From contig JAEOTM010000076.1 in assembly GCA_016839815.1 (NCBI GenBank), positions 7,247 through 71,246 on the forward strand: a stretch of 64,000 nucleotides of DNA. The letters run 5' to 3'. The DNA comes from Candidatus Hodarchaeota archaeon. GTDB lineage: Archaea; Asgardarchaeota; Heimdallarchaeia; Hodarchaeales; Hodarchaeaceae. The translations under genes were made by a program, and so were the position numbers. This document shows positions 2,527-61,486 of the stretch, one piece after another. Below the pieces are notes generated by a model. It saw nothing but the letters and a program-made list of their open reading frames with translations, had not been told where the DNA came from and did no database searches. Within the stretch, counting starts at the first letter, position 1. Each line of letters begins with the position of its first letter.

Positions 2527-3288
2527 TTACTTTTGTTTTCGTGAAATAATTACTAGGTATAATATACCAACTACAAGTAAAAATCCCTGAAATCCAGGAG
2601 TACTCGCGGTCTGAGTTGAAGTAGTCAGTTCATCTTGAGAAATCGTAACTGAGACTGTCATTGTAGTACTCTCTTGCGGAGTACTGATGGTCATACTTGA
2701 GGAGCCTCGAGTTCCACCATGATACTCACTAAAGCTATCAGATACACCATATGCCCAAATGATGTCGATTTCACCAGATAAAGGGATATCACTATCATAT
2801 TGATCTCCAGTAGCGAGAAGACGAGTAAACTCAATCGTTGTACTAGTTGTATTCTCGAGACCAGCATATGAGAGGATATCATTGGTTCCTCCCAGATCAG
2901 TGTCCTCTGGGTGGTTTGAGCCTGTTGCAACAAGGGAATAAGCATCTTTAATAACAACGGTACCATTTGATTCTACCCATGCATAAATAATATCTGCATC
3001 CTTCATCTGCACTGATGGATTAAAACCTATAGCTAACCACCCTGTAGTTTTTACAGTTATACCAATTGATATGTTAGTATCATCTATTACTTCCCAATTA
3101 AGATTATAATTCCCACCTCCAAGTGATAATGAGGAAGTATATTCATCTGAAGAGATAACTCCATCAACTTCCGGTACTCGCAGTATGGAATATGTAAATG
3201 TGTAAGTACTGACCATTTGGATACTAGCGACGAGAAGAATAAAGGAGAAAAATATAAGAAGTATTTTTATTGATTTTTTTTGTAACAT
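2527..3288 (-). CDS. secreted DOMON-domain protein with PGF-CTERM-type C-terminal sorting signal
   Basis: N-terminal signal. DOMON-like core: GWLAIGFNPSVQMKDADIIYAW...TIEFTRLLATGDQYDSDI...IIWAYG. S/T-rich stalk, then TPGFQGFLLVVGILYLVIISRKQK (PGF + TM helix + basic tail). Confidence 0.7.
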   Translation of the reverse strand: MLQKKSIKILLIFFSFILLVASIQMVSTYTFTYSILRVPEVDGVISSDEYTSSLSLGGGNYNLNWEVIDDTNISIGITVKTTGWLAIGFNPSVQMKDADIIYAWVESNGTVVIKDAYSLVATGSNHPEDTDLGGTNDILSYAGLENTTSTTIEFTRLLATGDQYDSDIPLSGEIDIIWAYGVSDSFSEYHGGTRGSSSMTISTPQESTTMTVSVTISQDELTTSTQTASTPGFQGFLLVVGILYLVIISRKQK

Positions 3289-3529: not shown

Positions 3530-5002
3530 TTGACTCAACTATATGAAATTAATACCAGAGTGTGGTTATACTCTCTGCAGAAAGAACTTAACAGAAAACT
3601 AACCCTATTAACTATTCCTGATGAACTTTGGATCGATATTATTGAAAAAGGATTTGAGTGGATTTGGTTGATGGGAGTATGGGAACATTCTCCCCTTTCT
3701 CAAGAAGAATTAGCTAAACTTCCAGGTTTAGCTACAGAGATAACGAAAGCTTTTCCCTCTTGGGCCCCTATCGATGTAATTGGTTCACCTTATTCAATCA
3801 TAGATTATAAATTAAATTCGATGTTAGGCAAACCAGGAGATTTACAACGTCTCAAGCAAAAATTAAATGATTTTGGAGCTAGATTGATTCTAGATTTCGT
3901 TCCTAACCATTATGGAAATGCTTCTAAGTTGGTCTTGACAAACCCAGAATTTTTTATTTCAATCGAAGACACACCAAATGATCAATCATTGTTTAAACTG
4001 GTAAATACCAAAAAAGGAAAACGCTGGATAGCCTATGGGAAGGATCCTTACTTTTCTCCATGGACTGATACATTTCAGTTGAATTACTTTAGTGAAAAGA
4101 CACGTGAATACATGATCACAAAATTACGCGATATCGCTCTCGTATGTGATGGTATTCGATGTGATATGGCTATGTTATGTCTGAATGAAATTATTCAGAA
4201 AACTTGGGGGCTTTATCTTGACGGAAATAAAGCTGCTGAGCCAAATAGATCTGAATTCTGGACTCAGGCAATTGAAACTATTAAAACCGATCATCCCAAC
4301 TTTCAATTTCTCGCAGAAGTATATTGGAACCTTGGTGGACGATTACAACAAATGGGGTTTGATTATACTTATGATAAAGACCTGTATGATTTACTAGAAT
4401 CAGGTTCTGCAGAAAAAATTCACTCCCATATCAATTCAAGCAATAAGACTCTATCAAATACAATTAGTTTTATCGAGAATCATGATGAAAAACGAGCTAT
4501 TGAAGTTTTTGGAAGAAAAAGATCAATTGCAGCAGCTATTGTTATGGGTACCCTTCCTGGGATGAGTTTATACCATCAAGGTCAGTTAGAGGGGATGAAG
4601 ATAAAAATTCCTGTTCAGTTGAGACAGAAACAGTCAGAATATCCTGATAATGAAATTAAATCTGTATATAATCGTATTCTTGGATTTACACGACAAATAA
4701 TTTACAATCATGAAATATGGTCAATGTTATCTTCCTCAAATCCCCATGTCCTCGCTTGGCAATGGAGTACTCCTAATTCCGATAAGTACCGTCTCGTAGC
4801 AGTTAACTATTCATCCACTCCTGCTCAAGGACATATTTTTCTTCTCAAAGAATTCATTCAAAGCCATATTGAACAATTTATCTTTAATGATATCTTGAAT
4901 CAGGAGAAATATAAGTGGGATAGTATACACTTATCTAAACACGGTCTTTATGTCGATCTTCCCCCGTTTGAGAGTCATCTCTTCACTGTAAATCCAATCT
5001 AG
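3530..5002 (+). CDS. glycoside hydrolase family 13 (alpha-amylase catalytic domain) protein
   Basis: All four GH13 regions are present: LILDFVPNH (I), GIRCDMA (II, nucleophile D), FLAEVYW (III, acid/base E), FIENHDE (IV). TTG start; no signal peptide. Confidence 0.8.
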   Translation: MTQLYEINTRVWLYSLQKELNRKLTLLTIPDELWIDIIEKGFEWIWLMGVWEHSPLSQEELAKLPGLATEITKAFPSWAPIDVIGSPYSIIDYKLNSMLGKPGDLQRLKQKLNDFGARLILDFVPNHYGNASKLVLTNPEFFISIEDTPNDQSLFKLVNTKKGKRWIAYGKDPYFSPWTDTFQLNYFSEKTREYMITKLRDIALVCDGIRCDMAMLCLNEIIQKTWGLYLDGNKAAEPNRSEFWTQAIETIKTDHPNFQFLAEVYWNLGGRLQQMGFDYTYDKDLYDLLESGSAEKIHSHINSSNKTLSNTISFIENHDEKRAIEVFGRKRSIAAAIVMGTLPGMSLYHQGQLEGMKIKIPVQLRQKQSEYPDNEIKSVYNRILGFTRQIIYNHEIWSMLSSSNPHVLAWQWSTPNSDKYRLVAVNYSSTPAQGHIFLLKEFIQSHIEQFIFNDILNQEKYKWDSIHLSKHGLYVDLPPFESHLFTVNPI

Positions 5003-5055: not shown

Positions 5056-5889
5056 TTACAAATTACCAACTGGTGCGCTATGATATACTTCTCGAATGTG
5101 TTGAAGTCCTTCAATCAATAGTGGTTTTAAAGAATCTTTTGAATATAAAGTATCTTCATTGACTACTCCCATAAAATTGTCTATCATTATTCGAAATCGG
5201 GGGGCAAGTCCTTCAGTTTGTTCATAAACTTGTGTTCTTGCCTCTACTAATCTCATTTTCAGATCTAAACCCGAGATTTCAAGTAAGTCGGTTGAGAGGT
5301 CAGAAATCAAGTTGTCTATAATTGTCAAAATATTAGCTTTATCTTGTTCTGATAAACAGACTATCTGTGATCGAATTTTTGATAGTTCTTGTTGAATAGT
5401 TCTTTCAGAGACACTTGAAGGTTCACTCTTTCGTATAGGGATTTCTAATTGAGAGTTTATTACCGATATATCCGATTTGATAACTAAAATTGCTTTCTCA
5501 ATCGTATTCATTCCTTGAGTGAACTGGGAGTTAATGGTTTCCTGATAATTCGCAAAAGATTTGGAAATTTCTTTAAGTTGACTGGTTAACAAGACTATTG
5601 CATCGTGCATTTCACTTATTGAGTCCGATTGTCCGTTGGGAGAATCAGTATCGTCAGTAATTTGAGAAATCGAACCGAGTAAGTTTTCGATTTTTTCCAG
5701 CCCTGCTATCTGGGAGACCTCAAGAGATTTTAGATTTGCTTCTGTTGTTGAAAGATCATCTAATTTTTCATTAACACTCCGCAACACACTTGTTGTGTTT
5801 CGGTTACTCATTCGGATCCATTCAATAAAATTATTTATTGTTTCTTCAAGAGATTTTCCTGGATTTAGTTTGGGATCATATGGTTTCAT
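5056..5889 (-). CDS. hypothetical coiled-coil protein
   Basis: 277-aa ORF rich in heptad-like S/E/Q/L/I segments. No TM segment and no recognisable catalytic motif. Confidence 0.5.
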   Translation of the reverse strand: MKPYDPKLNPGKSLEETINNFIEWIRMSNRNTTSVLRSVNEKLDDLSTTEANLKSLEVSQIAGLEKIENLLGSISQITDDTDSPNGQSDSISEMHDAIVLLTSQLKEISKSFANYQETINSQFTQGMNTIEKAILVIKSDISVINSQLEIPIRKSEPSSVSERTIQQELSKIRSQIVCLSEQDKANILTIIDNLISDLSTDLLEISGLDLKMRLVEARTQVYEQTEGLAPRFRIMIDNFMGVVNEDTLYSKDSLKPLLIEGLQHIREVYHSAPVGNL

Positions 5890-6034: not shown

Positions 6035-6856
6035 TCAATCAACCCATGAGAGATGGAGGTTTAAGGCGATGAGAGCGACTATTGCTATTATTATCTGAAT
6101 ATGAATCCCTCTCGCAATTCTACGAGCATTTTTCATCAATGGTGCTTTTTTCCACCAATTTATTCTTAGAATAAGTCCTGCTAACGATAAATAGACTCCA
6201 TAAGCCATTGCTGTCCACGCAAAGAAAAAATTTGGTCCATTATGATCCTCAAACAAGCTGATCATATGAAGAATCACGAAGATACATAACATAAGACATC
6301 CGATACAATGAATATTTAGTAAAACTCTCCGAATTGTAAAGTAAATGGATTTACTCAGTTTTTTAGGATTATATATTCTAACTCCATCATTTTCTTCTTC
6401 AACCATTCCTTTATTTCGATAATAGCTATATTTCATGACAATTTTTTCTAATGTATAAACTATTAGATCTTTCAAGTATATCCACAGTACGAATGGTAAG
6501 ATTAAGATTAGTACAAAAGAATTTGCTGTTTCTCCAAATGATTTTCCTAAATCTTTCTCTGTCTCCAGTGAAAGATCAAGGTTTGATTTAAGTAAATCAG
6601 CAGTTAGAGCAAATAATAGAAGTAATGAGAGCGAAAAAAGAAGAGTTCTAGGATATTTCACCTGTTTCTTGATTGCACGATTTCCCGTCTTTTTAAGTAG
6701 TAGAATGAGTTCGCCACTCAACAGAGTTCCTTCCAGTATGGAATTAGAGCAATACTTCCAGATCTGACCCGTATCCTTTAATAAAGTTACTTTTTTTAAT
6801 GGTAGGGTATGTAGTCGTAAGGAACGATTATGAGGTAATAAGACTATGAAAATCAA
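6035..6856 (-). CDS. hypothetical multi-pass membrane protein (paired His in two C-terminal helices; start uncertain)
   Basis: 273-aa ORF. Its 5' end overlaps the divergent gene at 6846 by 11 nt, so the true start may be internal. Helices NIHCIGCLMLCIFVILH and GIHIQIIIAIVALIALNLH each carry two His. Confidence 0.45.
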   Translation of the reverse strand: MIFIVLLPHNRSLRLHTLPLKKVTLLKDTGQIWKYCSNSILEGTLLSGELILLLKKTGNRAIKKQVKYPRTLLFSLSLLLLFALTADLLKSNLDLSLETEKDLGKSFGETANSFVLILILPFVLWIYLKDLIVYTLEKIVMKYSYYRNKGMVEEENDGVRIYNPKKLSKSIYFTIRRVLLNIHCIGCLMLCIFVILHMISLFEDHNGPNFFFAWTAMAYGVYLSLAGLILRINWWKKAPLMKNARRIARGIHIQIIIAIVALIALNLHLSWVD

Positions 6857-7457
6857 TCAGACCCAAAAAGTAATGATTACGATTGTTTTATCGATAGCTG
6901 TCTTTTCTAGCATTTTAATCACGATAATTAATCAGCAATCAGCCACTGCAAGTATAGATGGATCTACTGATATATCCGCTGTAGCTACTTCGTTATATCT
7001 GAAGCTTACCGGCGAAACCCAAGGTGATATCAATGGTGGTGTCACTAGAGCTTCATATGAAAATTGGATTGAAGTTCTGAGTTATTCACATACTATCAAG
7101 GCTCCCTACGATCCTGATACAGGTCTTCCTACTGGGAAACGTCAACACTCTCCGTTTCGAGTAACAAAATCAATAGATCAAGCCACCCCCTTATTGATGA
7201 GTGCACTTTCAAACAATGAATTACTTGTTAGTTTCGAATTTCGAATTTTAACCCCCTCAAATACAGGTCAAGAGGTTCATCTGATGACTATTGAGCTTCA
7301 CAATGCGCGTATTGTTTCGTATCAAGGATCTGGATCAACTGCTTTTGATTCTAATGTACTTACCGAGACATTCTCCTTTGTGTACACCAAAATAACTTGG
7401 ACGTGGATGGATGGTGGTATTACTTCTGAAGATGACTGGAATCCTCCACCTGTATAA
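6846..7457 (+). CDS. hcp: Hcp/TssD-family (T6SS tube protein fold) homolog with N-terminal Sec-type signal peptide
   Basis: LYLKLTGETQGDI...ENWIEVLSYSH...TGLPTGKRQHSPFRVTKSIDQATPLLMSAL...FEFRI...TIELHNARIVSY...TETFSFVYTKITWTW matches the Hcp pattern (IEVxxFxH, TGxRxHxPxxxTKxIDxxSPxL, EKITWTY). N-terminus KVMITIVLSIAVFSSILITII...ATA|S. Confidence 0.75.
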   Translation: MKINQTQKVMITIVLSIAVFSSILITIINQQSATASIDGSTDISAVATSLYLKLTGETQGDINGGVTRASYENWIEVLSYSHTIKAPYDPDTGLPTGKRQHSPFRVTKSIDQATPLLMSALSNNELLVSFEFRILTPSNTGQEVHLMTIELHNARIVSYQGSGSTAFDSNVLTETFSFVYTKITWTWMDGGITSEDDWNPPPV

Positions 7458-7480: not shown

Positions 7481-8161
7481 TTGATTAGCATGCGACATAA
7501 TAAATTCAGCCCTTGGCTAATTATTGCAATTTTTATTTCTCTTACTCCCGCAGCTGCAATTACCGAACCTGTGGAAGTATTAAATATCTACCATGAAGGG
7601 GCACTGATTTCTGTTCAACTTACAGATTATTCTTTAGCGGATCGAGATCGAGAAGATTGTTTTGTTCTTTTCATTGTGATTTCACCTACTGAAGATCCAT
7701 TCGAAATTCATGCAGCCATTCTACTGTTTGAGACGGCTGGTGGAGGATCACACTATTGTTTTTGGATCCTTGAAAATCCTTATTTCAGTGCCACATGGCA
7801 TTCAGGATATGTAAATGAGCATTTCTTTGTAATGGACCTTCAATATGATTTTATGTTTAGTGAGTATACCCATATCGCAAGCCCCTCTGTCTCAATCCTT
7901 GCTCTTGCGGGGATTATTCCAAGTTTCCCAGTAAGTTCTGAAACAAATGAGTTTTCTCCAATTTTGGATGAGTTTGCTGACATACTATTGACCTACAACG
8001 TTACTATCTCTCCTCCTGTTACTACTTCATCTACCACTACAACATCTACATCAATCCCCTTATCTACAACAACTGACTCCATTAGCTCAGGAATAGGTGT
8101 ACTTCTAGGACTTCTGACATTATTTTCTGTGGTAATCCTTAGAACCAAGAAAAATCGATGA
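7481..8161 (+). CDS. hypothetical secreted protein with S/T-rich stalk and C-terminal membrane anchor
   Basis: Starts 23 nt after the Hcp-like gene. N-terminal signal (WLIIAIFISLTPAAA). TTSSTTTTSTS stalk, then GIGVLLGLLTLFSVVILRTKKNR. Confidence 0.5.
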   Translation: MISMRHNKFSPWLIIAIFISLTPAAAITEPVEVLNIYHEGALISVQLTDYSLADRDREDCFVLFIVISPTEDPFEIHAAILLFETAGGGSHYCFWILENPYFSATWHSGYVNEHFFVMDLQYDFMFSEYTHIASPSVSILALAGIIPSFPVSSETNEFSPILDEFADILLTYNVTISPPVTTSSTTTTSTSIPLSTTTDSISSGIGVLLGLLTLFSVVILRTKKNR

Positions 8162-13923: not shown

Positions 13924-15177
13924 TTATAAGTAGGTTGAGCTGCCAAAGTACCCTTCTTCTCCAAGTGTCACACTGGAGAGCAAAAAAGCATTTACACCAA
14001 CTCCATCTCCATTATCATCATAATGCGGATGCTCTGCTCTACTATCCATTACTAAGGCATAATTAAAGGCTTCTCTCATCGAAATAAAGCCGTCAGTATT
14101 TACATCATGCCAAGTAACAGGTGTACCGTCAGGTGTTTGCATATTTACAGCAACCATGAAATGATATACAAATTCGTCATATGATCCTTCATTGTCACAT
14201 GACCATGAGCTTTCAGTCCCAGAGGCTGCAGTCATAATAACACGATTGGATCCAGATAGCGCAGGTATGAAAATACCTGAATTACATTGTTCCATGACGA
14301 TTATCATCTTAGCATAATCTATTGGATCTAATACTTCTGCAAAATGTTCTGGAGATATCGTTTCGTAATAATACAAACATAATCCTTCTTCCCACCCATG
14401 GTTTGTTGTGTATATAAACAAACTATCTTTTGGATCCATAATTTGTGCAAGGTAGTTAAATGTGTTGTTGAAATGCTGTGAATTGGCAGAAATATTGACA
14501 GGCATATCTGTATCTTCTGCTATTCCATCTTTATAAATAACAATGATATTTTGTGGGTCATAAGCGTATTTATTAACAAGGATTGAATACATGAATTTCA
14601 AATCGTTCCAATACCGGCTATAGGCTTTAGCAGCACGATAACCTCCACTGATTAAAACAGCATATCTATTCGCATATGTTTGAGCTGAATAATTCATAAG
14701 AATATGATAAATGCTTTCTCTGTACTGTGGATGTCTTGTCATTACGGTATATGAGGATTTTTCAAGAAGATACTCAAGTCCACCTACTCCTTCCGATTCT
14801 TCTGCCCAAGTTATATTTCCTTTAATCCTAATCCAGCTACCTGTTTCACGAGAAAGTACACTTGGTACGTCTCCTAATACTTCCATATACTTTGTGGTAG
14901 GTATAATAGTATTTTGTTGAAAATCATCCACATTTTTGAGTAATAGCGCCTTGTGTGATCCACCAAGAACATAATATCCTTCCATGGTCACAATCTTGCC
15001 TAAAAATTGTGTTACATTTTCCATTACTTCAGTAATATCCCGCGGAACGTCTTCCTCGGGAATTCCAGGAGGGGGAATTTCAGGAGGGGAAATTTCAGTA
15101 AAATAGTAAAATTGGAACATATTTGCTCCAAGAAGAACAATGACTAATATCAAAAGAACACTTGTTGTTTTTCCCAT
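13924..15177 (-). CDS. secreted peptidase C13 (legumain-like, clan CD) with EF-hand/dockerin-like Ca-binding loop
   Basis: Signal/anchor at the N-terminus. YAVLISGG...RYWND, catalytic His (FIYTTNHG) and Cys (VMEQCNSG). C-terminal DVNTDGFISMRE loop and DDNGDGVGV. Confidence 0.75.
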   Translation of the reverse strand: MGKTTSVLLILVIVLLGANMFQFYYFTEISPPEIPPPGIPEEDVPRDITEVMENVTQFLGKIVTMEGYYVLGGSHKALLLKNVDDFQQNTIIPTTKYMEVLGDVPSVLSRETGSWIRIKGNITWAEESEGVGGLEYLLEKSSYTVMTRHPQYRESIYHILMNYSAQTYANRYAVLISGGYRAAKAYSRYWNDLKFMYSILVNKYAYDPQNIIVIYKDGIAEDTDMPVNISANSQHFNNTFNYLAQIMDPKDSLFIYTTNHGWEEGLCLYYYETISPEHFAEVLDPIDYAKMIIVMEQCNSGIFIPALSGSNRVIMTAASGTESSWSCDNEGSYDEFVYHFMVAVNMQTPDGTPVTWHDVNTDGFISMREAFNYALVMDSRAEHPHYDDNGDGVGVNAFLLSSVTLGEEGYFGSSTYL

Positions 15178-16874: not shown

Positions 16875-17786
16875 CTAGCGTTTTGTTGTTTCCTTATATA
16901 GTTCTGCAAGTTCATCGATATCAAATTCGTCAACAACGTCTTTTTGCTCTTTTAATGCCTTACCCGTTTCCTTCTCATCCAGAATTGCCCGTAATTTTTC
17001 ATGTTTGGTTCCTTTTATGAGATCTGGATCTTGTAATTTCCCTCGGCCTTTATCGGTTATTTTCCAGACTTGTTTGAAATCATCATACTCCAAGTCACCT
17101 TTTGTACGCAACTTCCTAAGAAGAATGAGAATTTTGTCGCGATTATATTCTACTTGACCCGTCCTGGATATAATTTCTAGCTGACCCAATAGCGCTAGTA
17201 ATGGTAAACCTTCTTTCTTTTCTACGAGCATATCGAAGATATAGATGGTGAGTAGTCTTGAAACTTTATCCTCTAAAGGAAATTTATCCTCTTCCATGCA
17301 TTCATGGATCCAGACAAGAACATCCCCGAATGACTTTGGAATTTTGCAGGTTGTGGAAAAAACACGATGTGGACGGTCATATCGGTTTAAAATATCCAAA
17401 CGATCGATCACTACTGAAGGATGTGTTCTAGAAATATCTACTTTGTTAAACACAACAGCTAGAGGTTTTCCAAGTGTAATTGGATTGTTTAATATCCGTA
17501 GAAATTCTCTTCTAACCTCAGAGAAGGTTGTTTCATCACTACCGTCAATCACAAAAATCGTGGCATCGACATGGGGGAGATATTCCTCAACAAACCTGCG
17601 TACCTCTTTTCTTCCACCCACTTCGATAAGTGAAAAAGTTGCCTTCCCTTCAACGACTATATCATATGATTGATGTGCTGTAGATGGAATTCCAGGCCTA
17701 AATTCTCCTTTTTGATATGATGAAATAAGTGTAGATTTTCCACTTCTTTCTAGGCCGTATAAAAGTACTTGTATCGCTCCTTTCAA
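16875..17786 (-). CDS. Arf/Arl/Sar-like small GTPase fused to a C-terminal winged-helix-like domain and acidic tail
   Basis: G1 GLERSGKST, G3 IEVGGRKEVRRF (compare WDVGGQ), G4 FNKVD, G5 STTCK. Residues about 170-260 are wHTH-like (LPLLALLGQLEIISRTGQVEYNRDKILILLRKLRTKGDLEY...WKITDKGR). Confidence 0.85.
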   Translation of the reverse strand: MKGAIQVLLYGLERSGKSTLISSYQKGEFRPGIPSTAHQSYDIVVEGKATFSLIEVGGRKEVRRFVEEYLPHVDATIFVIDGSDETTFSEVRREFLRILNNPITLGKPLAVVFNKVDISRTHPSVVIDRLDILNRYDRPHRVFSTTCKIPKSFGDVLVWIHECMEEDKFPLEDKVSRLLTIYIFDMLVEKKEGLPLLALLGQLEIISRTGQVEYNRDKILILLRKLRTKGDLEYDDFKQVWKITDKGRGKLQDPDLIKGTKHEKLRAILDEKETGKALKEQKDVVDEFDIDELAELYKETTKR

Positions 17787-33293: not shown

Positions 33294-34079
33294 ATGTTAG
33301 GTCGATGGTTAGAAACTAATTTCGAGAATGTTCACTATAATCTCGCTCTGGAACATGCAATTCTGTTTCTCTCATCTCAAAATGATTTTTCTGCCACCGT
33401 TCGTGTGTGGACAAATCCTAAAGCTGTTATTCTAGGACGGAGTCAACAAATTAGTGAGGAAGTAGATTTAACTTATTGTTCAGAAAATGAAATCACGATA
33501 GGCCGTCGAATATCAGGAGGGGGGACAGTTTATCATGATTTGGGCAATATTAACTTATCGATTTTTTTACCAAAAACAAAACTATTCCCAAAAGCACGAG
33601 ATGTTAAATCTATTTCGAGAATGTTTTCAGAACTCATAATTAATCAATTGAAACTAGAATTAAAGACTGGAACATTTTCTATCTATAACGAAAATTCGAT
33701 TCTGTATAATCAAAAGAAGTTCTCAGGATCTGCAGGGTATTTCCGGAGTGATTGGTTCCTTCATCATTTTACTCTTCTCTTCGAGACAAATCAAATTCAT
33801 TTAAATCATGTTCTCCGGGCTGGAAGAAGTGATTATTCAAGCAAAAGGCCTAGTAGCTTTATTCCAACAGCTAATTTACCTCCTTTATCCAAATCTAATC
33901 TGATAAAAAGCATCATCGATCAGTTGGAAAACACTTTCGATGTAGTATTCGAATTTAAACCATTAACAGAGTCAGAAATCCAATTAGCTACTCGTCTCGC
34001 CAATGAAATGTATTCCCAAAAATCATGGATCTGGAATAAAAAAAGAAGGTTAATTGAAGAAAGGTTTTCTCCGAGTTAG
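33294..34079 (+). CDS. lplA: lipoate-protein ligase A-type catalytic domain protein
   Basis: VRVWTNPKAVILGRSQ, RRISGGGTVYHDLGNINLSIF and KKFSGSAGY (lipoyl-AMP Lys motif). Convergent with the E3 gene 7 nt away. Confidence 0.8.
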   Translation: MLGRWLETNFENVHYNLALEHAILFLSSQNDFSATVRVWTNPKAVILGRSQQISEEVDLTYCSENEITIGRRISGGGTVYHDLGNINLSIFLPKTKLFPKARDVKSISRMFSELIINQLKLELKTGTFSIYNENSILYNQKKFSGSAGYFRSDWFLHHFTLLFETNQIHLNHVLRAGRSDYSSKRPSSFIPTANLPPLSKSNLIKSIIDQLENTFDVVFEFKPLTESEIQLATRLANEMYSQKSWIWNKKRRLIEERFSPS

Positions 34080-34086
34080 TTAATTT

Positions 34087-35514
34087 TTATTTTTTTTTTC
34101 TAACAAGAGTTACTTGATGGATAGCCTTGTCTAAAGCTGCGTCAGCAGCTTCCATAATCATTTCAGGAAGAGTGGGATGAGGATGTACAGTAAGACTTAA
34201 GTCTTCAAGCGTCGCGCCCATTTCAAGAGCTAGTGCGATTTCGGAAATTTGATCTGATGCATCTGGTCCGACAATCTGGACACCAAGTAGTTGATTGGTA
34301 GTTCTATCAGCGACAACCTTAACGTATCCATCTTCAACTAACTGGGTCATCGCTCTCGCAGAGGTACCAAACGCAGCTCTTCCAGTAATAACATCGAAAC
34401 CAGCATCTTTTGCTTGTTTTTCCGTAAGTCCTGCATACGAGATCTCGGGTTCTGTGAAAATTGCCACTGGGATAGTTTGAAAATCACTTTCAGAAGGTAA
34501 ACCATTGAGTACCTCTGCAGCTATGATTCCTTGCTTTGTTGCACGGTGAGCTAAGAATGGTGGACCTGTACAATCTCCCACAGCATAGATTCCTTGAATT
34601 GAGGTCTGTTGTTTTTCATTTACAACAATATAACCTTTATTATCTATTTTTAAATTGAGAACTGATAGATTCAGATCCTCTATCTGAGCTTTTTTCCCTA
34701 CTGCTAAGAGCACTTTATCCACTGTAATCTTTTTCTTCTCACTTTTTGTTTCAATCTCAACTGATAGTTTTCCATTTTTCTGTGGCGAATAACCTTTAGA
34801 AGTCGCAGAAGTGAATATCGATACTCCTAATTGTTTTATCTTTGCGCTTATTAATCGTTTGATTGGGAGATCGACCCCTGGTAATATTTCAGGTAATAAC
34901 TCTACAATAGTTACTATAGACCCAAGTTTTGCAAACAATGTTCCTAATTCGAGTCCAATCACTCCTCCTCCAATAATGAGTAGATTACCGGGAATTTCCT
35001 TTACTGATAATAATCCTTTTGCGCTGAGTATCTTCTTCTCATCAATTTTAAAATTAGGAAGAGAAATAAACGTTGTTCCAGTTGCCAGAATCACCTCAGA
35101 GTATTTTACTGTATTCTTAGTTCCATCTTCATTTGTAACTGTTACTTCACCATGTTTCTCGAATTTTGCTGTTCCTAAGACCGTTGTTACACCATTTCTT
35201 GTAAGTAACTGCTTGATTCCATTAATTAATTTTGTTTGAATTCCCGTTTTCCATGCTTGGAGTGTGGTGAAATCTAATTCAACCTCTTTTACCCTAATAC
35301 CCATCTTGGGAGCGTCATACTTCAATTTATGAAAGAATTTAGCCGCAGAAATCAATGCCTTGCTTGGGATACATCCCCAATTTAGACATTCTCCTCCAAT
35401 GTATTCTTTCTCTACAATTACCACTTTTTTTCCTAATTGGGCTGATCTTATTGCCGCTGGATATCCTCCAGGACCAGATCCTATTACAAGTACATCTGTT
35501 TCTATCAAATTCAT
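34087..35514 (-). CDS. lpd: dihydrolipoyl dehydrogenase (E3)
   Basis: VIGSGPGGY FAD motif, redox disulfide GGECLNWGCIPSK, NAD motif IIGGGVIGLELG, C-terminal HPHPTLPE. Confidence 0.9.
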   Translation of the reverse strand: MNLIETDVLVIGSGPGGYPAAIRSAQLGKKVVIVEKEYIGGECLNWGCIPSKALISAAKFFHKLKYDAPKMGIRVKEVELDFTTLQAWKTGIQTKLINGIKQLLTRNGVTTVLGTAKFEKHGEVTVTNEDGTKNTVKYSEVILATGTTFISLPNFKIDEKKILSAKGLLSVKEIPGNLLIIGGGVIGLELGTLFAKLGSIVTIVELLPEILPGVDLPIKRLISAKIKQLGVSIFTSATSKGYSPQKNGKLSVEIETKSEKKKITVDKVLLAVGKKAQIEDLNLSVLNLKIDNKGYIVVNEKQQTSIQGIYAVGDCTGPPFLAHRATKQGIIAAEVLNGLPSESDFQTIPVAIFTEPEISYAGLTEKQAKDAGFDVITGRAAFGTSARAMTQLVEDGYVKVVADRTTNQLLGVQIVGPDASDQISEIALALEMGATLEDLSLTVHPHPTLPEMIMEAADAALDKAIHQVTLVRKKK

Positions 35515-36774
35515 TTAAAATTCCTCATTTAGGAGTAATAGCGCTGGATTCTCCATATACTTGATTAATTCATTCGTAAACATTGCTCCAACTGCCCCAT
35601 CAACTACTCTATGATCAATCGTAAGGGACAACATCATTATTTTTCGAATAGCAATTTCTGGCTTTCCATTTTGTTCAATTACAACCGGTCGTAATTTACT
35701 ACGCATCAATCCTAGAATCGCCACCTCTGGCCACCGAATAATTGGAGTAGCTGCAAATCCACCAATATTACCAACAGAAGTTATTGTAATTGTACCCCCA
35801 GTTACATCATCTAAAGTAAGTGAATTATTCCGTGCTTTATCTGCTAGGATCTGAACTTCCTGTACTAGTTCCCAGATACTTTTTTGATCTACATTCTTAA
35901 TTACAGGGACAATTAATCCCTCGTCTGTATTTACAGCAATACCTATATTTATCGATCCTTTCAAAACTATTTCTCCAGCATCATCTTCAAGTGTAGAATT
36001 TAAATGTGGAAATTTACGTAATGCTGGGACTAAACATTTAATGACTAATGGAATATAGGTGAGTTTAACTCCATATTGCTCCGCTAGAGGCTTTGCATCC
36101 TGACGAAGGGCTTCTAATGCACTCATATCGACTTCTTCGAAATAAGTATAATGAGCGGCAGTATCTTTTGAATTTCTCATTGCTTTAGCAATATTTCGTC
36201 GTAACCCCCGTATTGGAATTCTCTGGTCCTCTCTTGATATGATTCCTTTACTTTTCCGAGTCCAAGGAATTGTTGAAGATTGTTTTTCTGTAAAATTGTT
36301 GAAATCTTGATGTGTAATTCTTCCTGCTGGACCTGTACCTTTTACTTCATTTAAGTTTATACTTAGCTCTCGTGCTTGTTGTCTTATTGAGGGAGCCGCA
36401 AGTGGTTTTTCTGATCTTAAATATCCTTCACTCTTCGACGATTTTATTTGTTTAAATGGTTTAGCAGCCGTGAAAAGCGAATCATCTTCTTCAGATGGTT
36501 CATCAATGTCAGTAGGTGAATCTGAGTTTTTCTCCTTTACAGGCTCGATTGTTACCAATACTGCCCCAACTCTTACGATATCTCCTTCCTGATATTCCAA
36601 CGTTAGTATTTTCCCGTTTATTGGTGAGGCCAGTTCTACAGTCACTTTCTCCGTCATTACTTCAACCAGAAGCTGTTCATTCTTGACTATTTCACCAGCT
36701 TTCACATGCCACTGTAATATCTCTCCTTCATGGACTCCTTCCCCTGGATCTGCAAACTTGAATTCATATGTCAT
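35515..36774 (-). CDS. dihydrolipoamide acyltransferase (E2) of a 2-oxoacid dehydrogenase complex
   Basis: Lipoyl domain with VEVMTEKVTVEL (lipoyl-Lys), peripheral subunit-binding domain (APSIRQQARELSINL) and catalytic LTIDHRVVDGA. Confidence 0.9.
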   Translation of the reverse strand: MTYEFKFADPGEGVHEGEILQWHVKAGEIVKNEQLLVEVMTEKVTVELASPINGKILTLEYQEGDIVRVGAVLVTIEPVKEKNSDSPTDIDEPSEEDDSLFTAAKPFKQIKSSKSEGYLRSEKPLAAPSIRQQARELSINLNEVKGTGPAGRITHQDFNNFTEKQSSTIPWTRKSKGIISREDQRIPIRGLRRNIAKAMRNSKDTAAHYTYFEEVDMSALEALRQDAKPLAEQYGVKLTYIPLVIKCLVPALRKFPHLNSTLEDDAGEIVLKGSINIGIAVNTDEGLIVPVIKNVDQKSIWELVQEVQILADKARNNSLTLDDVTGGTITITSVGNIGGFAATPIIRWPEVAILGLMRSKLRPVVIEQNGKPEIAIRKIMMLSLTIDHRVVDGAVGAMFTNELIKYMENPALLLLNEEF

Positions 36775-36793
36775 TATATCTCACTCCTTGTTT

Positions 36794-37774
36794 TCAAAAA
36801 TTATACACCTTAACAATGGTATCTACCGTCCTTTTAGCTGTTGGAAGATATTCCTGCTCTAGAGCTAATGGAAAAGGTGTGTCATACCCTGTAACTCGCA
36901 TGATTGGGCCTTCCATGTACTCAATCCATCTTTCAGCTACTAATGCTGATAATTCCGCACTAAAACCGCTCGTTTTAGGAGCTTCAGTAACAGATATCAT
37001 ACGACCAGTTTTCTTTACGGTTTTCTCTATCGTTTCAAGATCTAAGGGAACTAGAGTACGTAAATCAATAACTTCACATTCAATTTGATGTTCTTTGGAA
37101 GCAAGTTCCGCTGCTTCTAATGCAACATGGAGCATAGCCCCATAAGCAAGGACTGAGACATCGTTCCCCTCCCGAGCCACTCTTGCTTTTCCTAATGGAA
37201 TTGTGTAATCTCCTACAGGGACTTCTTCCTTAAATGCACGGTATAGTCGCTTAGGTTCAAGAAACAGGACAGGATCTTGTTCACGCATTGCCGTGGTTAG
37301 TAATCCTTTAGCCTGGTATGGTGAACTGGGTATTACAACTTTTAATCCAGGTGTATGTGTAAAATATGCTTCAGGAGACTGACTATGATAATGTGCTCCA
37401 CGGACTCCACCTCCGTATGGAGAACGAATAACCATTGGCGAAGTAAACATTCCTCCACTTCGGTAACGAAATTTTGCAGCTTCAGATATTAATTGGTCAA
37501 ATCCAGGGTATATAAAATCCACAAATTGAATCTCAGCAACAGGCATTAATCCCATTAATGCCATTCCAATTGCAAACCCAATAATCCCATTTTCCGATAA
37601 TGGGGTGTCTAATATTCGTTTTGACCCGTATTTTTCAAGAAGGCCCTGAGTTGCCCGAAAAACACCGCCATTCGGTCCAATATCTTCACCTAAAATTATC
37701 AACTTGCTATTTCGTTGTAATTCTTCGTCTAATGCCAATCGAACTGACTCAACTAAGGTTAGTTCTGGCATCAA
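36794..37774 (-). CDS. 2-oxoacid dehydrogenase E1 component, beta subunit
   Basis: ILGEDIGPNGGVFRATQGL...DTPLSENGIIGFAIGMA...EIQFVDFIYP is the typical E1beta transketolase-like fold. Confidence 0.9.
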   Translation of the reverse strand: MMPELTLVESVRLALDEELQRNSKLIILGEDIGPNGGVFRATQGLLEKYGSKRILDTPLSENGIIGFAIGMALMGLMPVAEIQFVDFIYPGFDQLISEAAKFRYRSGGMFTSPMVIRSPYGGGVRGAHYHSQSPEAYFTHTPGLKVVIPSSPYQAKGLLTTAMREQDPVLFLEPKRLYRAFKEEVPVGDYTIPLGKARVAREGNDVSVLAYGAMLHVALEAAELASKEHQIECEVIDLRTLVPLDLETIEKTVKKTGRMISVTEAPKTSGFSAELSALVAERWIEYMEGPIMRVTGYDTPFPLALEQEYLPTAKRTVDTIVKVYNF

Positions 37775-38862
37775 TCATTCATCCTCTGTAAAGCACTGAG
37801 TTCTTCAAATTGTTCCCTTAAATGCCAAGGTTGATCACTATACACATCGGTAAATAATGTTTCTAAGGATGGAGGAGGCAGTTTTTCTGCTTTGGTTATT
37901 AGTTCATTAATTTCAGTATCATATGAGGAACGAATTTCCTCTACTCGATTATCAGAAATTATACCTTTCTTGAGCAAATAATTTTCAAAACGCTTAATAG
38001 GATCTAATTTCTGCCAAGTTGCGAGTTCTTTCTTTGGTCTATAACGTGTTGGGTCATCCGATGAAGTATGCGGTCCTGCGCGATATGTCACTGCTTCTAT
38101 GAATGTTGGCCCATTTCCCATCCTAGCTTGTTTAACGGCATCTTTCACAGCTGTATAGACAGCTAAAATATCGTTCCCATCAATTCGAATACCTGGAATA
38201 CCATAACCCAGAGCTTTATCAACTAAGGAGGAAGCACCAGTCTGTTTAGATAATGGAACTGAAATTGCCCACTGATTATTTTGACAAAAGAATATTGTTG
38301 GCGTTTTAAATACAGCACCAAAATTCATTCCCGCATGAAAATCACTTGAAGAGGTAGCTCCATCACCAAAAAAGACTATATTCACAGCTTTTTCTGATAA
38401 AAATTTGTTCGCAAATCCTGCTCCAGCAGCTTGAATAATTTGAGTCCCAATCGGTGCTGAAGGATTAACATAACGATGTTCTTTAGAACCAAAAAGTCCT
38501 GGTAATCGTCGTCCTTTTTGAGGATCCTCTTCATTCACAAACCAGTGATTGATTAGGTCAAATAGAGGTAATCCACGATAGAAGGCCATTCCAGGTTCTC
38601 GATAAGCAGGAAATATCCAATCTTCAGGATTCAATGCTGCTACTGCTCCAATTTGAGTAGCCTCCTGTCCAGTACTTGGTATGCTAAAGCTTATTCTTCC
38701 TTGACGCTGTAAACGCATACCTTTTTCATCTAAAAGACGGACTAGGATCATGTACTGTAGCATTTTTACTAATTCTTTCTCAGGAATATCGGGTTCTAGC
38801 TCAGAATTAACCTTACCCGAAGAATCCAATATTTGCATCAAATTCATGGTAATGTCCCTCAA
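37771..38862 (-). CDS. 2-oxoacid dehydrogenase E1 component, alpha subunit (TPP-binding)
   Basis: TPP motif FFGDGATSSSDFHAGMNFGAV...N, YRAGPHTSSDDPTRYR. 4-nt overlap with the E1beta start. Confidence 0.9.
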   Translation of the reverse strand: MRDITMNLMQILDSSGKVNSELEPDIPEKELVKMLQYMILVRLLDEKGMRLQRQGRISFSIPSTGQEATQIGAVAALNPEDWIFPAYREPGMAFYRGLPLFDLINHWFVNEEDPQKGRRLPGLFGSKEHRYVNPSAPIGTQIIQAAGAGFANKFLSEKAVNIVFFGDGATSSSDFHAGMNFGAVFKTPTIFFCQNNQWAISVPLSKQTGASSLVDKALGYGIPGIRIDGNDILAVYTAVKDAVKQARMGNGPTFIEAVTYRAGPHTSSDDPTRYRPKKELATWQKLDPIKRFENYLLKKGIISDNRVEEIRSSYDTEINELITKAEKLPPPSLETLFTDVYSDQPWHLREQFEELSALQRMND

Positions 38863-52524: not shown

Positions 52525-52665
52525 TACTAAAGAGAAAGCATTTGTTATCAATAAAAAAAATTGATTGCATTTAAAAATTATCGGCTTTTCCACGATTTCA
52601 TTAATGATTTCAGGTACATAGTTGTAGAATGAGTTCTTGTTTAAAGGGAAGTGTTTAGTCATCAA

Positions 52666-61269: not shown

Positions 61270-61486
61270 TCTAATAGGAAAAATATCATTGCTAGACAAA
61301 CAAAATCATGATGCAAAACAATGAATTCTGGATAATAAGAAGAGGAGGAGGGAGTTCAGCTAGTGGAGGTTTCTTTAGGTTTATTTCGATTTTTTTATAT
61401 ACTGGATGAAATACACTTATTCCAAATACAAAAAGGATGGAATCAGAATCACAGAAAATTATCGGGCAGGACAGGGGATTCGAATT

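What the first reader, a model, noticed from the sequence alone, without database searches (positions are those of the whole stretch)
6846..7457. Hcp/TssD-family tube protein homolog with a Sec signal peptide and no T6SS context
Seen: a strong motif match to the Hcp family (IEVLSYSH, TGLPTGKRQHSPFRVTKSIDQATPLL, FSFVYTKITWTW). It is preceded by a classical n-h-c signal (K..VMITIVLSIAVFSSILITII...ATA|S). The window contains no sheath (TssB/C), VgrG, PAAR, baseplate or ClpV-like genes. Established: Hcp is a cytoplasmically assembled hexameric tube subunit exported by the contractile machine without a signal peptide, and T6SS is regarded as bacterial. Inference: this is either a horizontally acquired Hcp fold repurposed as a Sec-exported surface/ring protein or chaperone, or part of an unrecognised archaeal system.
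Basis: partly seen in the sequence, partly recalled or inferred. Interest (0 to 1): 0.65.

Follow-up and report, generated by a model that had tools for sequence, protein, structure and literature searches.

The report
Exported Hcp paired with surface-anchored partner
An Asgard (Heimdall/Hodarchaeales-type) archaeon carries a genuine type VI secretion tube protein (Hcp) that has gained an export signal, has no injection machinery nearby, and is always encoded next to a new stalked cell-surface protein, which points to a bacterial weapon part reused as an archaeal surface module.

Summary
ORF 6846-7457 (+) is a true Hcp/TssD: PF05638 scores 114 bits, TIGR03344 scores 125 bits against a cutoff of 59, and the AF2 model matches Hcp crystal structures at TM 0.85-0.9. 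It has a 46-aa N-terminal extension: a basic n-region, a 20-residue hydrophobic helix, "ATA|S", and a disordered linker. The only canonical starts (M1, M10) precede the helix, and the extension is conserved under purifying selection. No T6SS or CIS family was found in any window ORF. The host is a Heimdallarchaeia/Hodarchaeales-like Asgard archaeon.

The gene is not an orphan. The next gene (7490-8161) encodes a signal peptide, a novel ~150-aa β-rich ectodomain, a Ser/Thr-rich stalk, and a C-terminal TM with a basic tail (Heimdall-CTERM-like across the family). This signal-Hcp plus partner pair recurs in all 10 distinct archaeal-type loci examined, including four found through the partner alone. 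The closest canonical Hcp (Desulfocapsa, 49% identity) lies in a complete T6SS operon.

Best reading: a horizontally acquired T6SS tube protein was converted into a Sec-exported component of a two-gene archaeal surface module. Ring or tube assembly, and signal cleavage versus membrane anchoring, remain untested.

The parts
6832..6836 (+). GAGGT Shine-Dalgarno-like motif 9 nt upstream of the ATG at 6846. An in-frame TGA at 6831-6833 closes the frame upstream.
   Evidence: Read directly from the sequence. M10 has no such motif.
6846..7457 (+). Signal-bearing Hcp/TssD homolog, 203 aa (whole CDS including stop).
6846..6950 (+). Export signal, aa 1-35: basic n-region MKINQTQK, uncharged hydrophobic run aa 9-28, polar c-region NQQSATA with small-x-small ATA at aa 33-35. 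Putative signal-peptidase site after A35, or alternatively an uncleaved N-in/C-out anchor.
   Evidence: Hydropathy and start-codon analysis. Family-wide table of n/h/c features. AF2 helix 5-29. dN/dS of the h-region is 0.03-0.37.
6951..6983 (+). Disordered linker aa 36-46 (SIDGSTDISAV) between the signal and the first β-strand.
   Evidence: AF2 pLDDT is below 50 for aa 24-44. Alignment A3 shows canonical Hcps start at the position of aa 46/47.
6984..7442 (+). Hcp β-barrel domain aa 47-199. It includes the L2,3-equivalent loop KAPYDPDTGLPTGKRQH (aa 85-101), which is retained, and a shortened, sequence-unrelated loop at aa 161-172.
   Evidence: TIGR03344 matches aa 47-199. PF05638 matches aa 51-187. 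Alignment A3. The role of the loop is taken from PMC4650826.
7490..8161 (+). Partner gene, 223 aa from the ATG at 7490 (the mechanical ORF starts at TTG 7481), 32 nt downstream of the hcp stop on the same strand and probably co-transcribed. Architecture: signal peptide aa 1-23 (…LTPAAA|ITEP), β-rich ectodomain about aa 24-170, Ser/Thr-rich stalk about aa 175-199, C-terminal TM (SGIGVLLGLLTLFSVVIL) and basic tail RTKKNR.
   Evidence: No intrinsic terminator lies between the genes on the + strand.
8012..8158 (+). Stalk plus C-terminal sorting/anchor region of the partner (aa 175-223). Family members carry (P/S/T)GF-TM-KK termini that hit NCBIfam Heimdall-CTERM below its cutoff. The window copy has SGIG instead of PGF and gives no hit.
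   Evidence: AF2 shows disorder at 173-200 and a helix at 201-221.

Best explanation
This is a two-gene archaeal cell-surface module built around a captured T6SS tube protein.

Shown:
- Gene 1 is a true Hcp/TssD domain preceded by a conserved N-terminal export signal.
- Gene 2, immediately downstream on the same strand, encodes a signal peptide, a novel β-rich ectodomain of about 150 aa, a Ser/Thr-rich stalk, and a C-terminal hydrophobic anchor with a basic tail.
- The two genes are inherited together across diverged lineages.
- The host is a Heimdall/Hodarchaeales-type Asgard archaeon, and no contractile-injection gene is nearby.

Inferred:
- The Hcp is translocated unfolded through the Sec translocon and folds outside the membrane. 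The positive-inside n-region places the Hcp domain outside whether or not the signal is cleaved after ATA35.
- It associates there with the stalked, membrane- or lipid-anchored partner, giving a tethered extracellular Hcp assembly that works without sheath, baseplate or ClpV.
- The loop that mediates ring-on-ring stacking in T6SS Hcp (L2,3) is retained, and the barrel is about 50% identical to working tube subunits. A hexameric ring, possibly a short stack, is therefore the most likely quaternary form.
- In T6SS biology the gene downstream of an hcp often encodes the small cargo held in the ring lumen. The partner ectodomain (about 17 kDa) is in that size range. A specific proposal is that the ring caps or encloses the partner's ectodomain at the tip of its stalk.
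- The biological role (envelope or appendage structure, adhesion, or capture of ligands or other proteins) is not determined.
- The module most likely arose by horizontal transfer of an hcp from a T6SS-bearing sediment bacterium of Desulfobacterota type, followed by gain of a signal and of the partner.
For: - Hcp identity.
- Signal: n-region +2/+3 with no acidic residues, an uncharged run of 17-22 residues, a polar N/Q break, then small-x-small around aa 29-35 in 12 of 13 family members. Only L013 lacks the small-x-small and only the truncated P0060 lacks the n-region.
- Start codons: only M1 and M10 are available.
- Selection: dN/dS of the extension is 0.2-0.56, and of the h-region as low as 0.03.
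- Pairing: a partner-family gene lies 9-44 nt downstream of a signal-Hcp in the window, L004, L011/L012, L001 (two tandem pairs), L013, L014, L015/L016, L017 and L018/L019. That is 10 of 10 distinct loci with downstream DNA. L013-L016 were retrieved using the partner only, and each had an Hcp ORF immediately upstream.
- Co-divergence of the two genes (Hcp / partner identity): window-L004 60/55%, window-L011 57/53%, window-L013 34/31%, window-L015 33/30%, L013-L015 43/36%.
- Partner family: 35 representatives in 1.8 billion proteins, sharing SP, S/T stalk, (P/S/T)GF-TM-basic tail. Ten of the 19 partner-family proteins scanned hit Heimdall-CTERM at 14.5-23.9 bits against a cutoff of 24.
- Partner model: confident at pLDDT 83, with no PDB fold match.
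- Contrast: the Desulfocapsa Hcp (49% identity) sits in TssM-TssA-TssB-TssC-Hcp-TssE-TssF-TssG-ClpV-VgrG.
- No T6SS/CIS families in the window.
- Host.
- L2,3 loop function: PMC4650826.
Against: - There is no experimental or transcript evidence. No RNA runs hold the locus.
- Oligomeric state was not tested because no multimer prediction was available.
- Cleavage of the signal is not established. The 17-22-residue hydrophobic run looks more like a signal anchor than a typical Sec signal peptide.
- A physical Hcp-partner interaction is inferred only from gene linkage and co-divergence.
- The window's own partner lacks the PGF-like motif and gives no CTERM hit. All Heimdall-CTERM hits in the family are below the curated cutoff.
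- The most divergent clade (L013, L015) has lost the GLPTGKRQH loop sequence, so stacking may not be a conserved property.
- Only 64 kb of the genome was seen, so a distant T6SS/CIS locus is not excluded.
- The NJ tree does not resolve the donor or whether there was a single origin.
Confidence: 0.55

Rival explanations
1. Membrane-anchored Hcp. The N-terminal segment is an uncleaved type II signal anchor, so six helices hold an Hcp ring directly on the outer face of the cytoplasmic membrane. The partner, a type I anchored protein, sits beside it or in it. The assembly could act as a membrane-proximal portal or receptor rather than a released or stalk-tethered ring.
For: The hydrophobic run is 17-22 residues in every family member and is predicted as one continuous helix, aa 5-29. 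That is TM-length rather than the 7-15 residues typical of Sec signal peptides (general knowledge). The h-region is under very strong purifying selection between L004 and L011 (dN/dS 0.03), more than expected for a disposable signal.
Against: A small-x-small motif (ATA/ASA/GAS/GLS...) 4-7 residues after the helix is conserved in nearly all members, preceded by a polar N/Q helix break. That is the signature of a signal-peptidase I site. Archaeal signal peptides are often longer than bacterial ones (general knowledge, not tested here).
Confidence: 0.25
2. An ordinary orphan hcp of a T6SS or contractile injection system encoded elsewhere in the genome. In this view the N-terminal extension is irrelevant or regulatory.
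For: Orphan hcp genes away from the main cluster, often followed by a cargo gene, are common in T6SS-bearing bacteria (general knowledge). Only 64 kb of this genome, 20 kb of L001 and about 10 kb of L013 and L015 were inspected.
Against: A Sec-type signal would remove the protein from the cytoplasm, where T6SS tubes assemble. The signal is conserved and selected. The downstream partner is itself an exported, anchored surface protein, not a cytoplasmic effector. No T6SS/CIS gene appears in any inspected flank. T6SS has not been reported in archaea, and literature searches found nothing for Asgard or Heimdall.
Confidence: 0.05
3. A defensive decoy or sponge. The exported Hcp rings on the archaeal surface bind and neutralise T6SS effectors or tube tips delivered by neighbouring Desulfobacterota, exploiting the ring lumen's natural affinity for effectors.
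For: The archaeal Hcp is closest to Hcps of sulfate-reducing Desulfobulbales. These are named in Logan/JGI sediment datasets like those holding this locus (marine sediment metagenomes). Hcp rings are known effector chaperones/receptors (stated in PMC4650826).
Against: This is purely inferential. It does not explain the obligate partner gene. T6SS effectors are delivered inside the target, not at its surface.
Confidence: 0.05
4. Virus- or mobile-element-borne tail-tube-like gene pair (a remnant of an archaeal virus or tailocin).
For: Hcp is homologous to phage tail tube proteins (general knowledge). There is a weak PHROG hit (phrog_27303, E 6e-5, unknown function). The neighbouring coiled-coil ORF 5056-5889 has faint tape-measure PHROG hits (E 0.002-0.004).
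Against: No relative was found in IMG/VR by the close-relative scan. Flanking genes are housekeeping (amylase-family, thioesterase, MFS, NadA). The upstream amylase-family gene is syntenic in L013. GC of the pair (0.38-0.39) is close to the window's (0.356). The partner has no phage-part fold match. The sequence is much closer to T6SS Hcp than to any phage tube.
Confidence: 0.03

Closest known systems
T6SS(i) tube protein Hcp/TssD (PF05638, TIGR03344), e.g. Desulfocapsa/Electrothrix Hcp, P. aeruginosa Hcp3 (3he1), V. cholerae Hcp (5mxn)
   Same: Same sequence family and fold. It is 49-53% identical to Desulfobulbales Hcps over aa 46-203. The L2,3 loop (GLPTGKRQH) and the C-terminal KITWTW...DDW motif are retained.
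   Different: It has a 46-aa N-terminal export signal plus linker. The host is archaeal. There is no TssB/C, VgrG, TssE-G, TssM or ClpV nearby, whereas the bacterial relative sits in a full operon. The flexible loop equivalent to BpHcp1 124-140 is replaced and shortened, by 4 residues here and 8-11 in sister clades (A3). It is obligately paired with an anchored surface protein.
Orphan hcp-effector islands of T6SS bacteria (Hcp as lumen chaperone of the downstream-encoded small effector)
   Same: The gene order is hcp followed directly by a small (~150-aa functional domain) protein gene on the same strand.
   Different: Here both products carry Sec-type signals. The downstream product is a stalked, membrane-anchored surface protein rather than a cytoplasmic toxin, and no immunity gene or T6SS is present. 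The resemblance is a lead from general knowledge and was not tested.
Archaeal C-terminal sorting-signal surface proteins: PGF-CTERM/archaeosortase A substrates (e.g. Haloferax S-layer glycoprotein), and NCBIfam Heimdall-CTERM (NF045529) and Loki-CTERM (NF033507)
   Same: The partner family has the tripartite ending: Thr/Ser-rich (probably glycosylated) stalk, (P/S/T)GF motif, hydrophobic helix, basic tail. Ten of the 19 partner-family proteins scanned give C-terminal Heimdall-CTERM hits.
   Different: All hits are below the curated cutoff of 24 bits (best 23.9). The window's own partner has SGIG in place of PGF and gives no hit. No archaeosortase gene was seen in the window. The ectodomain is a new family with no Pfam, NCBIfam or PDB match.
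Extracellular contractile injection systems reported in some Euryarchaeota (PVC/Afp-like)
   Same: Tube-type protein in an archaeon.
   Different: Those use gp19/Afp1-type tubes with sheath, baseplate and AAA+ genes in one cluster, assembled in the cytoplasm and released by lysis (general knowledge; PMC3482391 lists the PVC pathway in Euryarchaeota). Here there is a T6SS-type Hcp, a Sec signal and no other CIS gene.

Membership tests
Hcp/TssD protein family (PF05638 / TIGR03344) | Sequence profile match above the curated thresholds over the full domain | tested here: met
   PF05638 scores 114 bits against 23.5, covering profile 1-129/129. TIGR03344 scores 124.8 bits against 58.9, covering profile 2-165/167.
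Hcp/TssD protein family (PF05638 / TIGR03344) | Hcp β-barrel fold with one flanking helix | tested here: met
   AF2 pLDDT is above 90 across aa 49-197, with a helix at 114-122. Foldseek's top 22 PDB hits are all Hcp, with TM(target) 0.73-0.92.
Hcp/TssD protein family (PF05638 / TIGR03344) | Assembly into hexameric rings that stack into a tube | not testable with these tools
   No multimer prediction or coordinates were available. The only indirect sign is that the stacking loop L2,3 equivalent is retained.
Type VI secretion system (as a system) | Tube subunit lacks a signal peptide, is assembled in the cytoplasm and expelled by sheath contraction | tested here: not met
   A conserved N-terminal n-h-c segment is present. 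No alternative start lies downstream of it, and it is under purifying selection.
Type VI secretion system (as a system) | Co-occurrence with core genes TssB/C, VgrG, TssE/F/G/K, TssM/L/J, ClpV | tested here: not met
   None is present in the 64-kb window or in the called genes around L001, L004, L011, L017 and L018. The rest of the genome is not available. The bacterial control locus L008 has them all.
Sec/signal peptidase I-type signal peptide | Positively charged n-region, hydrophobic h-region, polar c-region with small residues at -3/-1 | tested here: inconclusive
   The n-region is +2 and ATA is at -3/-1 before S36, which meets the criteria. The h-region of 20 residues (17-22 in the family) is longer than typical, so a signal anchor is not excluded. 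SignalP/DeepTMHMM were not available.
Archaeal class III (type IV pilin-like) signal | Short basic leader ending in G/A at -1 immediately before the hydrophobic stretch (prepilin peptidase site) | tested here: not met
   The window has ...TQK|VMIT with K at -1. Among 13 family N-termini only P0016 (…AKG|LMP) fits (and direct reading).
Heimdall-CTERM (NF045529) / PGF-CTERM-type sorting domain (partner protein) | C-terminal (P)GF-like motif, TM helix and basic tail scoring above the model cutoff | tested here: inconclusive
   The window partner gives no hit. Family members score 14.5-23.9 bits against a cutoff of 24 in 10 of the 19 partner-family proteins scanned, always at the extreme C-terminus. 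The architecture is visibly present.

The most novel reading that the evidence does not exclude
Heimdall/Hodarchaeales-type Asgard archaea, and related sediment archaea carrying the same pair, build a sheath-independent extracellular structure from a bacterial T6SS tube protein. Sec-exported Hcp hexamers would assemble outside the cell as rings or short tubes that cap or thread onto a glycosylated, lipid- or membrane-anchored stalk protein. This would be a new class of archaeal surface appendage or receptor, derived by domesticating an interbacterial weapon part, in the archaeal lineage closest to eukaryotes.
Probability: 0.3. Interest if true: 0.8.

Novelty: new variant of a known kind. Interest (0 to 1): 0.68.

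Why it matters
Hcp is the textbook example of a protein that leaves the cell without a signal peptide, pushed out by a contractile sheath, and T6SS is considered bacterial. Here a conserved family has the same tube protein routed through the general secretory pathway in Asgard archaea, always with a dedicated stalked surface partner.

If confirmed, this would show that the Hcp ring can be used as a stand-alone extracellular building block. It would add a concrete, testable component to the almost unknown cell-envelope biology of the Heimdall/Hodarchaeales lineage. It would also document a clear case of inter-domain transfer followed by change of export route. Finally, it defines a new protein family (the partner ectodomain) with no known fold relatives. 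Practically, annotation pipelines that label these genes 'type VI secretion system secreted protein Hcp' (as JGI does for P0023) wrongly imply a T6SS in these archaea.

Tried and rejected
- Exact-sequence lookup of the window Hcp found nothing on record, so the source record could not be retrieved.
- The genome-contig scan with the single protein returned only canonical bacterial Hcps. The window's genome is apparently not among the representatives, so a genome-wide T6SS search was impossible.
- BLASTP of the window partner against the L001 partners was not significant (E 1.4 and 12). Homology was only recovered with a family HMM (58.6 and 46.3 bits, with some compositional bias).
- The metagenome scan with the full partner alignment failed for lack of a conserved stretch. 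A tighter subfamily worked but returned only 4 loci.
- Fold searches of the partner against PDB and BFVD gave no meaningful match. The BFVD hits to herpesvirus m04-type glycoproteins have TM about 0.24 and reflect only the SP-ectodomain-TM topology.
- No tRNA or Rfam feature exists in the window. The promoter/terminator scan is a bacterial consensus scan and was uninformative.
- No RNA-seq run holds the locus.
- Literature searches for Hcp with a signal peptide, in archaea, in Asgard or Heimdall, and for Heimdall-CTERM, found no prior description. 'hcp' hits in Asgard papers appeared from titles and abstracts to concern unrelated uses of the abbreviation.
- The class III pilin-signal idea was rejected (see the membership test).
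- The NJ phylogeny could not establish monophyly of the signal-bearing Hcps or a donor. It is distance-based, arbitrarily rooted, and built on a sample biased by word-seeded retrieval.
Full report
**1. The observation**

It is unambiguously an Hcp/TssD.
- Pfam T6SS_HCP (PF05638) matches aa 51-187 across the whole 129-position profile at 114 bits, E 7e-33, against a cutoff of 23.5.
- NCBIfam TIGR03344 'type VI secretion system tube protein TssD' scores 124.8 bits against a cutoff of 58.9 over aa 47-199.
- Thirteen solved Hcp structures match by sequence. The best are P. aeruginosa Hcp3 3he1 at E 1e-21 and the V. cholerae sheath-tube Hcp 5mxn at 4e-21.
- An AlphaFold2 model built from 31 homologs has mean pLDDT 82, above 90 over most of the barrel.
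- Its best Foldseek matches in the PDB are exclusively Hcp proteins (6a2v, 4hkh, 5mxn, 3he1...) with E down to 1e-16 and target-normalised TM 0.85-0.92.

**2. The N-terminal extension is real and is not a start-codon artefact**

Canonical relatives are 162 aa and begin 'MALNAYLKLTGETQG'. The window protein aligns to that from A47 ('ATSLYLKLTGETQG') and has 46 extra residues (alignment A3).
- In the first 70 codons the only ATG/GTG/TTG codons are M1 and M10, and both precede the hydrophobic stretch.
- The frame is closed by a stop five codons upstream of M1. A GAGGT lies 9 nt before M1.
- The extension consists of a basic n-region (MKINQTQK, +2/0) and an uncharged run of 20 residues. The best 19-residue window, aa 10-28, has mean Kyte-Doolittle 2.64.
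- A polar break and small-x-small motif follow (NQQSATA|S), then about 11 polar residues.
- AF2 predicts a helix at aa 5-29 followed by a disordered linker up to the first β-strand at aa 49.
- Against two diverged orthologs with DNA available (L004, L011), the extension shows dN/dS 0.2-0.56, and the hydrophobic core 0.03-0.37. Synonymous sites are near saturation, so these ratios are approximate.

The same layout holds in 12 of 13 family members examined: +2/+3 n-region, 17-22 uncharged residues, an N/Q break, and small-x-small near position 29-35. Only L013 lacks the small-x-small, and only the truncated P0060 lacks the n-region.

The charge distribution places the Hcp domain outside the membrane in either case. 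I cannot decide whether signal peptidase removes the segment. The A-x-A motif argues for cleavage, while the TM-length helix argues for a signal anchor. No SignalP-type tool was available. A class III (pilin-type) signal does not fit, because there is no G/A at -1 before the hydrophobic stretch.

**3. Host and context**

The window's NadA is 77-78% identical to proteins named 'Candidatus Hodarchaeales archaeon' and 'Candidatus Heimdallarchaeota archaeon B3_Heim' (80% to an unnamed one). Thorarchaeota and Promethearchaeota follow at 65-69%, and bacteria lie below 58%.
- The window also encodes an Arf-family and a Ras-family small GTPase, TrmB, and the archaeal DUF7347 and DUF7436.
- The DNA is found in marine-sediment metagenomes.
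- I scanned all 55 ORFs of at least 150 aa and the 8 intergenic ORFs of 93-148 aa against Pfam. Nothing matched sheath, VgrG/gp5, PAAR, gp25/TssE, TssF/G/K, TssM/L/J, TssA or ClpV.
- HMMs built here find only one Hcp and one partner in the window.
- There are no tRNA genes or Rfam matches.
- GC of the gene (0.39) is close to the window average (0.356).

**4.

Thirty-two nucleotides downstream, on the same strand, lies ORF 7490-8161 (223 aa from its ATG).
- Its sequence runs as follows: a short classical signal peptide (…SLTPAAA|ITEP), then about 150 aa, a Thr/Ser-rich stretch, a hydrophobic helix, and RTKKNR.
- It has no Pfam or NCBIfam hit.
- Word-seeded search found only two relatives. An exhaustive HMMER search of 1.84 billion cluster representatives, using a 3-sequence profile, found 35 proteins (23 at E < 1e-10). 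Nearly all are 210-285 aa.
- Almost all have an N-terminal signal, a conserved core (…FWMLGDP…W..G.E.EH[FY]…DF..IL..F…), a Thr/Ser-rich linker, and a C-terminal '(P/S/T)GF + hydrophobic helix + Lys/Arg tail'.
- That ending is the pattern of archaeosortase-type sorting signals. Ten of the 19 partner-family proteins scanned hit NCBIfam 'Heimdall-CTERM domain-containing surface protein' (NF045529) at their extreme C-terminus with 14.5-23.9 bits against a cutoff of 24. One also hits Loki-CTERM.
- All these hits are below threshold, and the window copy (SGIG instead of PGF) gives none. I therefore treat membership as inconclusive, while the architecture is clear.
- Another window protein, the DOMON-domain protein at 2527-3288, also has a Heimdall-CTERM-like end at 17.3 bits. 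This genome therefore appears to use that signal.
- AF2 models the partner confidently (pLDDT 83, core above 90). It shows a β-rich domain (strands between aa 26 and 143), a helix (156-169), a disordered stalk (173-200) and a terminal helix (201-221).
- Foldseek finds no credible relative. The best PDB hit is E 0.017 with TM below 0.3. BFVD hits are topological look-alikes at TM about 0.24.

**5. The pair is inherited as a unit**

A signal-bearing Hcp is followed within 9-44 nt, on the same strand, by a partner-family gene in each of these loci:
- the window;
- L004 (GCA_012974705.1; the partner is interrupted by assembly Ns; an Arf-like GTPase lies next door);
- L011/L012;
- L001, a 104-kb JGI contig with two tandem pairs. 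Their partners score 58.6 and 46.3 bits against the family HMM, although pairwise BLAST is not significant;
- L017 and L018/L019, confirmed by HMM.

As an independent test I scanned the metagenome contig collection with a partner subfamily that excludes the window's clade. All four loci returned (L013-L016, the last two from contigs named WOR8 and SMTZ1) have an Hcp-family ORF immediately upstream. The three complete ones carry an N-terminal hydrophobic signal; the L014 copy is cut by the contig end. That makes 10 of 10 distinct loci.

Identities of the two genes fall together (Hcp / partner):

| Locus pair | Hcp | Partner |
|---|---|---|
| window-L004 | 60% | 55% |
| window-L011 | 57% | 53% |
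| window-L013 | 34% | 31% |
| window-L015 | 33% | 30% |
| L013-L015 | 43% | 36% |

. No third gene is consistently linked. Only an amylase-family gene upstream is shared between the window and L013.

Signal-bearing Hcps also exist outside this module.
- P0061 and P0065 lie in a 55%-GC, sulfatase/PTS context without a partner. They carry a distinctive 'GSLTPTN.PAPTM.TLDEIY' segment.
- L020 has two tandem copies, one fused behind a lipobox-bearing N-domain.

**6. Relationship to real T6SS Hcp**

The best canonical relatives (49-53% identity over the domain) are 162-aa Hcps of Desulfobulbales (Desulfocapsa, Electrothrix) and other sediment bacteria. I checked one of these loci. The Desulfocapsa hcp sits in IcmF/TssM - TssA - TssB - TssC - Hcp - TssE(gp25) - TssF - TssG - ClpV - VgrG. 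The archaeal gene therefore derives from the working tube lineage and not from a distant Hcp-like fold.

Two loop features stand out in alignment A3.
- The window clade and the 195-aa clade keep the segment equivalent to loop L2,3 (window aa 85-101, KAPYDPDTGLPTGKRQH). In B. pseudomallei Hcp1 (Asp40-Arg56) this loop makes the ring-to-ring contacts, and mutating it abolishes stacking and secretion (PMC4650826).
- The segment equivalent to the disordered 124-140 loop of that structure (canonical 'EMLNNKYPENMQHKERE') is replaced and shortened in every signal-bearing form. It is 4 residues shorter here and 8-11 in sister clades.

The most divergent paired clade (L013, L015) has also lost the GLPTGKRQH sequence. 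An NJ tree places the signal-bearing forms as several long branches outside a tight canonical cluster. It cannot resolve single versus multiple origin.

**7. Interpretation**

Shown:
- a bona fide Hcp domain with a conserved, selected export signal;
- an archaeal (Heimdall/Hodarchaeales-like) host;
- no T6SS/CIS genes in 64 kb;
- strict linkage and co-divergence with a new family of stalked, C-terminally anchored surface proteins;
- nearest relatives in bacterial T6SS operons.

Inferred:
- Sec-dependent translocation places the Hcp domain outside the cell.
- There it associates with the partner.
- It probably still forms rings, given 50% identity to tube subunits and retention of the stacking loop.

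More speculative: hcp genes are typically followed by the gene for the small protein their ring lumen carries, and the partner ectodomain is about 17 kDa. The ring may therefore hold or cap that ectodomain on its stalk.

Rivals, in order of weight:
1. An uncleaved anchor giving a membrane-proximal ring.
2. A decoy for bacterial T6SS effectors.
3. An ordinary orphan hcp of a distant T6SS. This is disfavoured because a Sec signal is incompatible with cytoplasmic tube assembly.
4. A viral or mobile origin. This has no support: and the flanking housekeeping genes.

**8. Novelty**

I found no description of signal-peptide-bearing Hcp, of Hcp in Asgard archaea, or of the partner family in the searchable literature. 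Absence from this library is not proof of absence. One source annotates a family member simply as 'type VI secretion system secreted protein Hcp'.

I rate it a new variant of a known kind. The protein family is known. The export route, host domain, genomic context and obligatory partner are new, and the partner ectodomain is itself a new family.

Noticed in passing
window 2527-3288 (-): DOMON-domain protein (PF03351, 95 bits) with a signal peptide and a C-terminus that hits NCBIfam Heimdall-CTERM at 17.3 bits (below the cutoff of 24). It also scores 21 bits against my partner HMM, probably through the shared signal and anchor regions. This suggests the genome uses a Heimdall-type C-terminal sorting signal on several surface proteins.
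   Followed up: partly
window 16875-17786 (-) and 61406-62035 (+); L004 4357-4824 (-): Arf-family (77 bits) and Ras/Rab-family (152 bits) small GTPases, which are eukaryote-signature proteins typical of Asgard archaea. An Arf-like GTPase also lies next to the Hcp-partner pair in L004.
   Followed up: partly
window 3530-5002 (+) and L013 1645-3141 (+): An alpha-amylase-family gene 2-3 kb upstream of the Hcp-partner pair is 52% identical between the window and L013 (E 2e-180). This indicates local synteny around the module in two diverged genomes. Whether the link is functional is unknown.
   Followed up: no
window 6035-6856 (-): A mechanical 273-aa TTG-start ORF on the opposite strand overlaps the hcp start by 11 nt. 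It is TM-rich, has no significant family hit, and is not conserved next to the pair in other loci. It is either shorter in reality (internal start) or spurious. If so, about 400 nt upstream of hcp is non-coding.
   Followed up: partly
window 33294-38862: A complete 2-oxoacid dehydrogenase complex gene set: E1 alpha 37771-38862, E1 beta 36794-37774, E2 35515-36774, E3 34087-35514, all on the - strand. A lipoate-protein ligase (33294-34079, +) lies adjacent.
   Followed up: no
window 44596-47322 (+), 53770-56661 (-), 13924-15177 (-): Large signal-bearing proteins are present: a 908-aa subtilase (PF00082), a 963-aa protein with no family hit, and a C13 legumain-like peptidase. Together with several glycosyltransferases (48366-49562, 52651-53694, 60529-61269), the region appears rich in envelope and secretome functions.
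   Followed up: no
window 5056-5889 (-): A coiled-coil-like 277-aa protein just upstream of the module has only faint hits (PHROG tape-measure families at E 0.002-0.004, and various coiled-coil Pfams). These are probably compositional.
   Followed up: no
L005 1535-2188 / L006 766-1419 (P0065) and P0061: These are Hcp homologs (216-217 aa) from 55%-GC contigs with a sulfatase/PTS/Na-H exchanger context, probably bacterial. They have a signal peptide followed by a conserved 'GSLTPTN(A/T)PAPTM(H/R)TLDEIY' segment before the Hcp domain, and no partner gene. This is a second, different kind of exported Hcp.
   Followed up: partly
L020 818-2460: Two tandem Hcp genes. One is 187 aa with a short signal directly abutting the Hcp domain. 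The other is 352 aa with a lipobox-like 'LLLAGC' and a 190-aa N-terminal domain fused in front of Hcp. A small lipoprotein-like ORF ('SLAGC') follows. The contig is too short to see more.
   Followed up: no
L001 8525-11368: Tandem duplication of the whole module (Hcp 202 aa + partner 236 aa, then Hcp 195 aa + partner 256 aa) on a 28.6%-GC, 104-kb contig. This shows the pair duplicates as a unit.
   Followed up: yes
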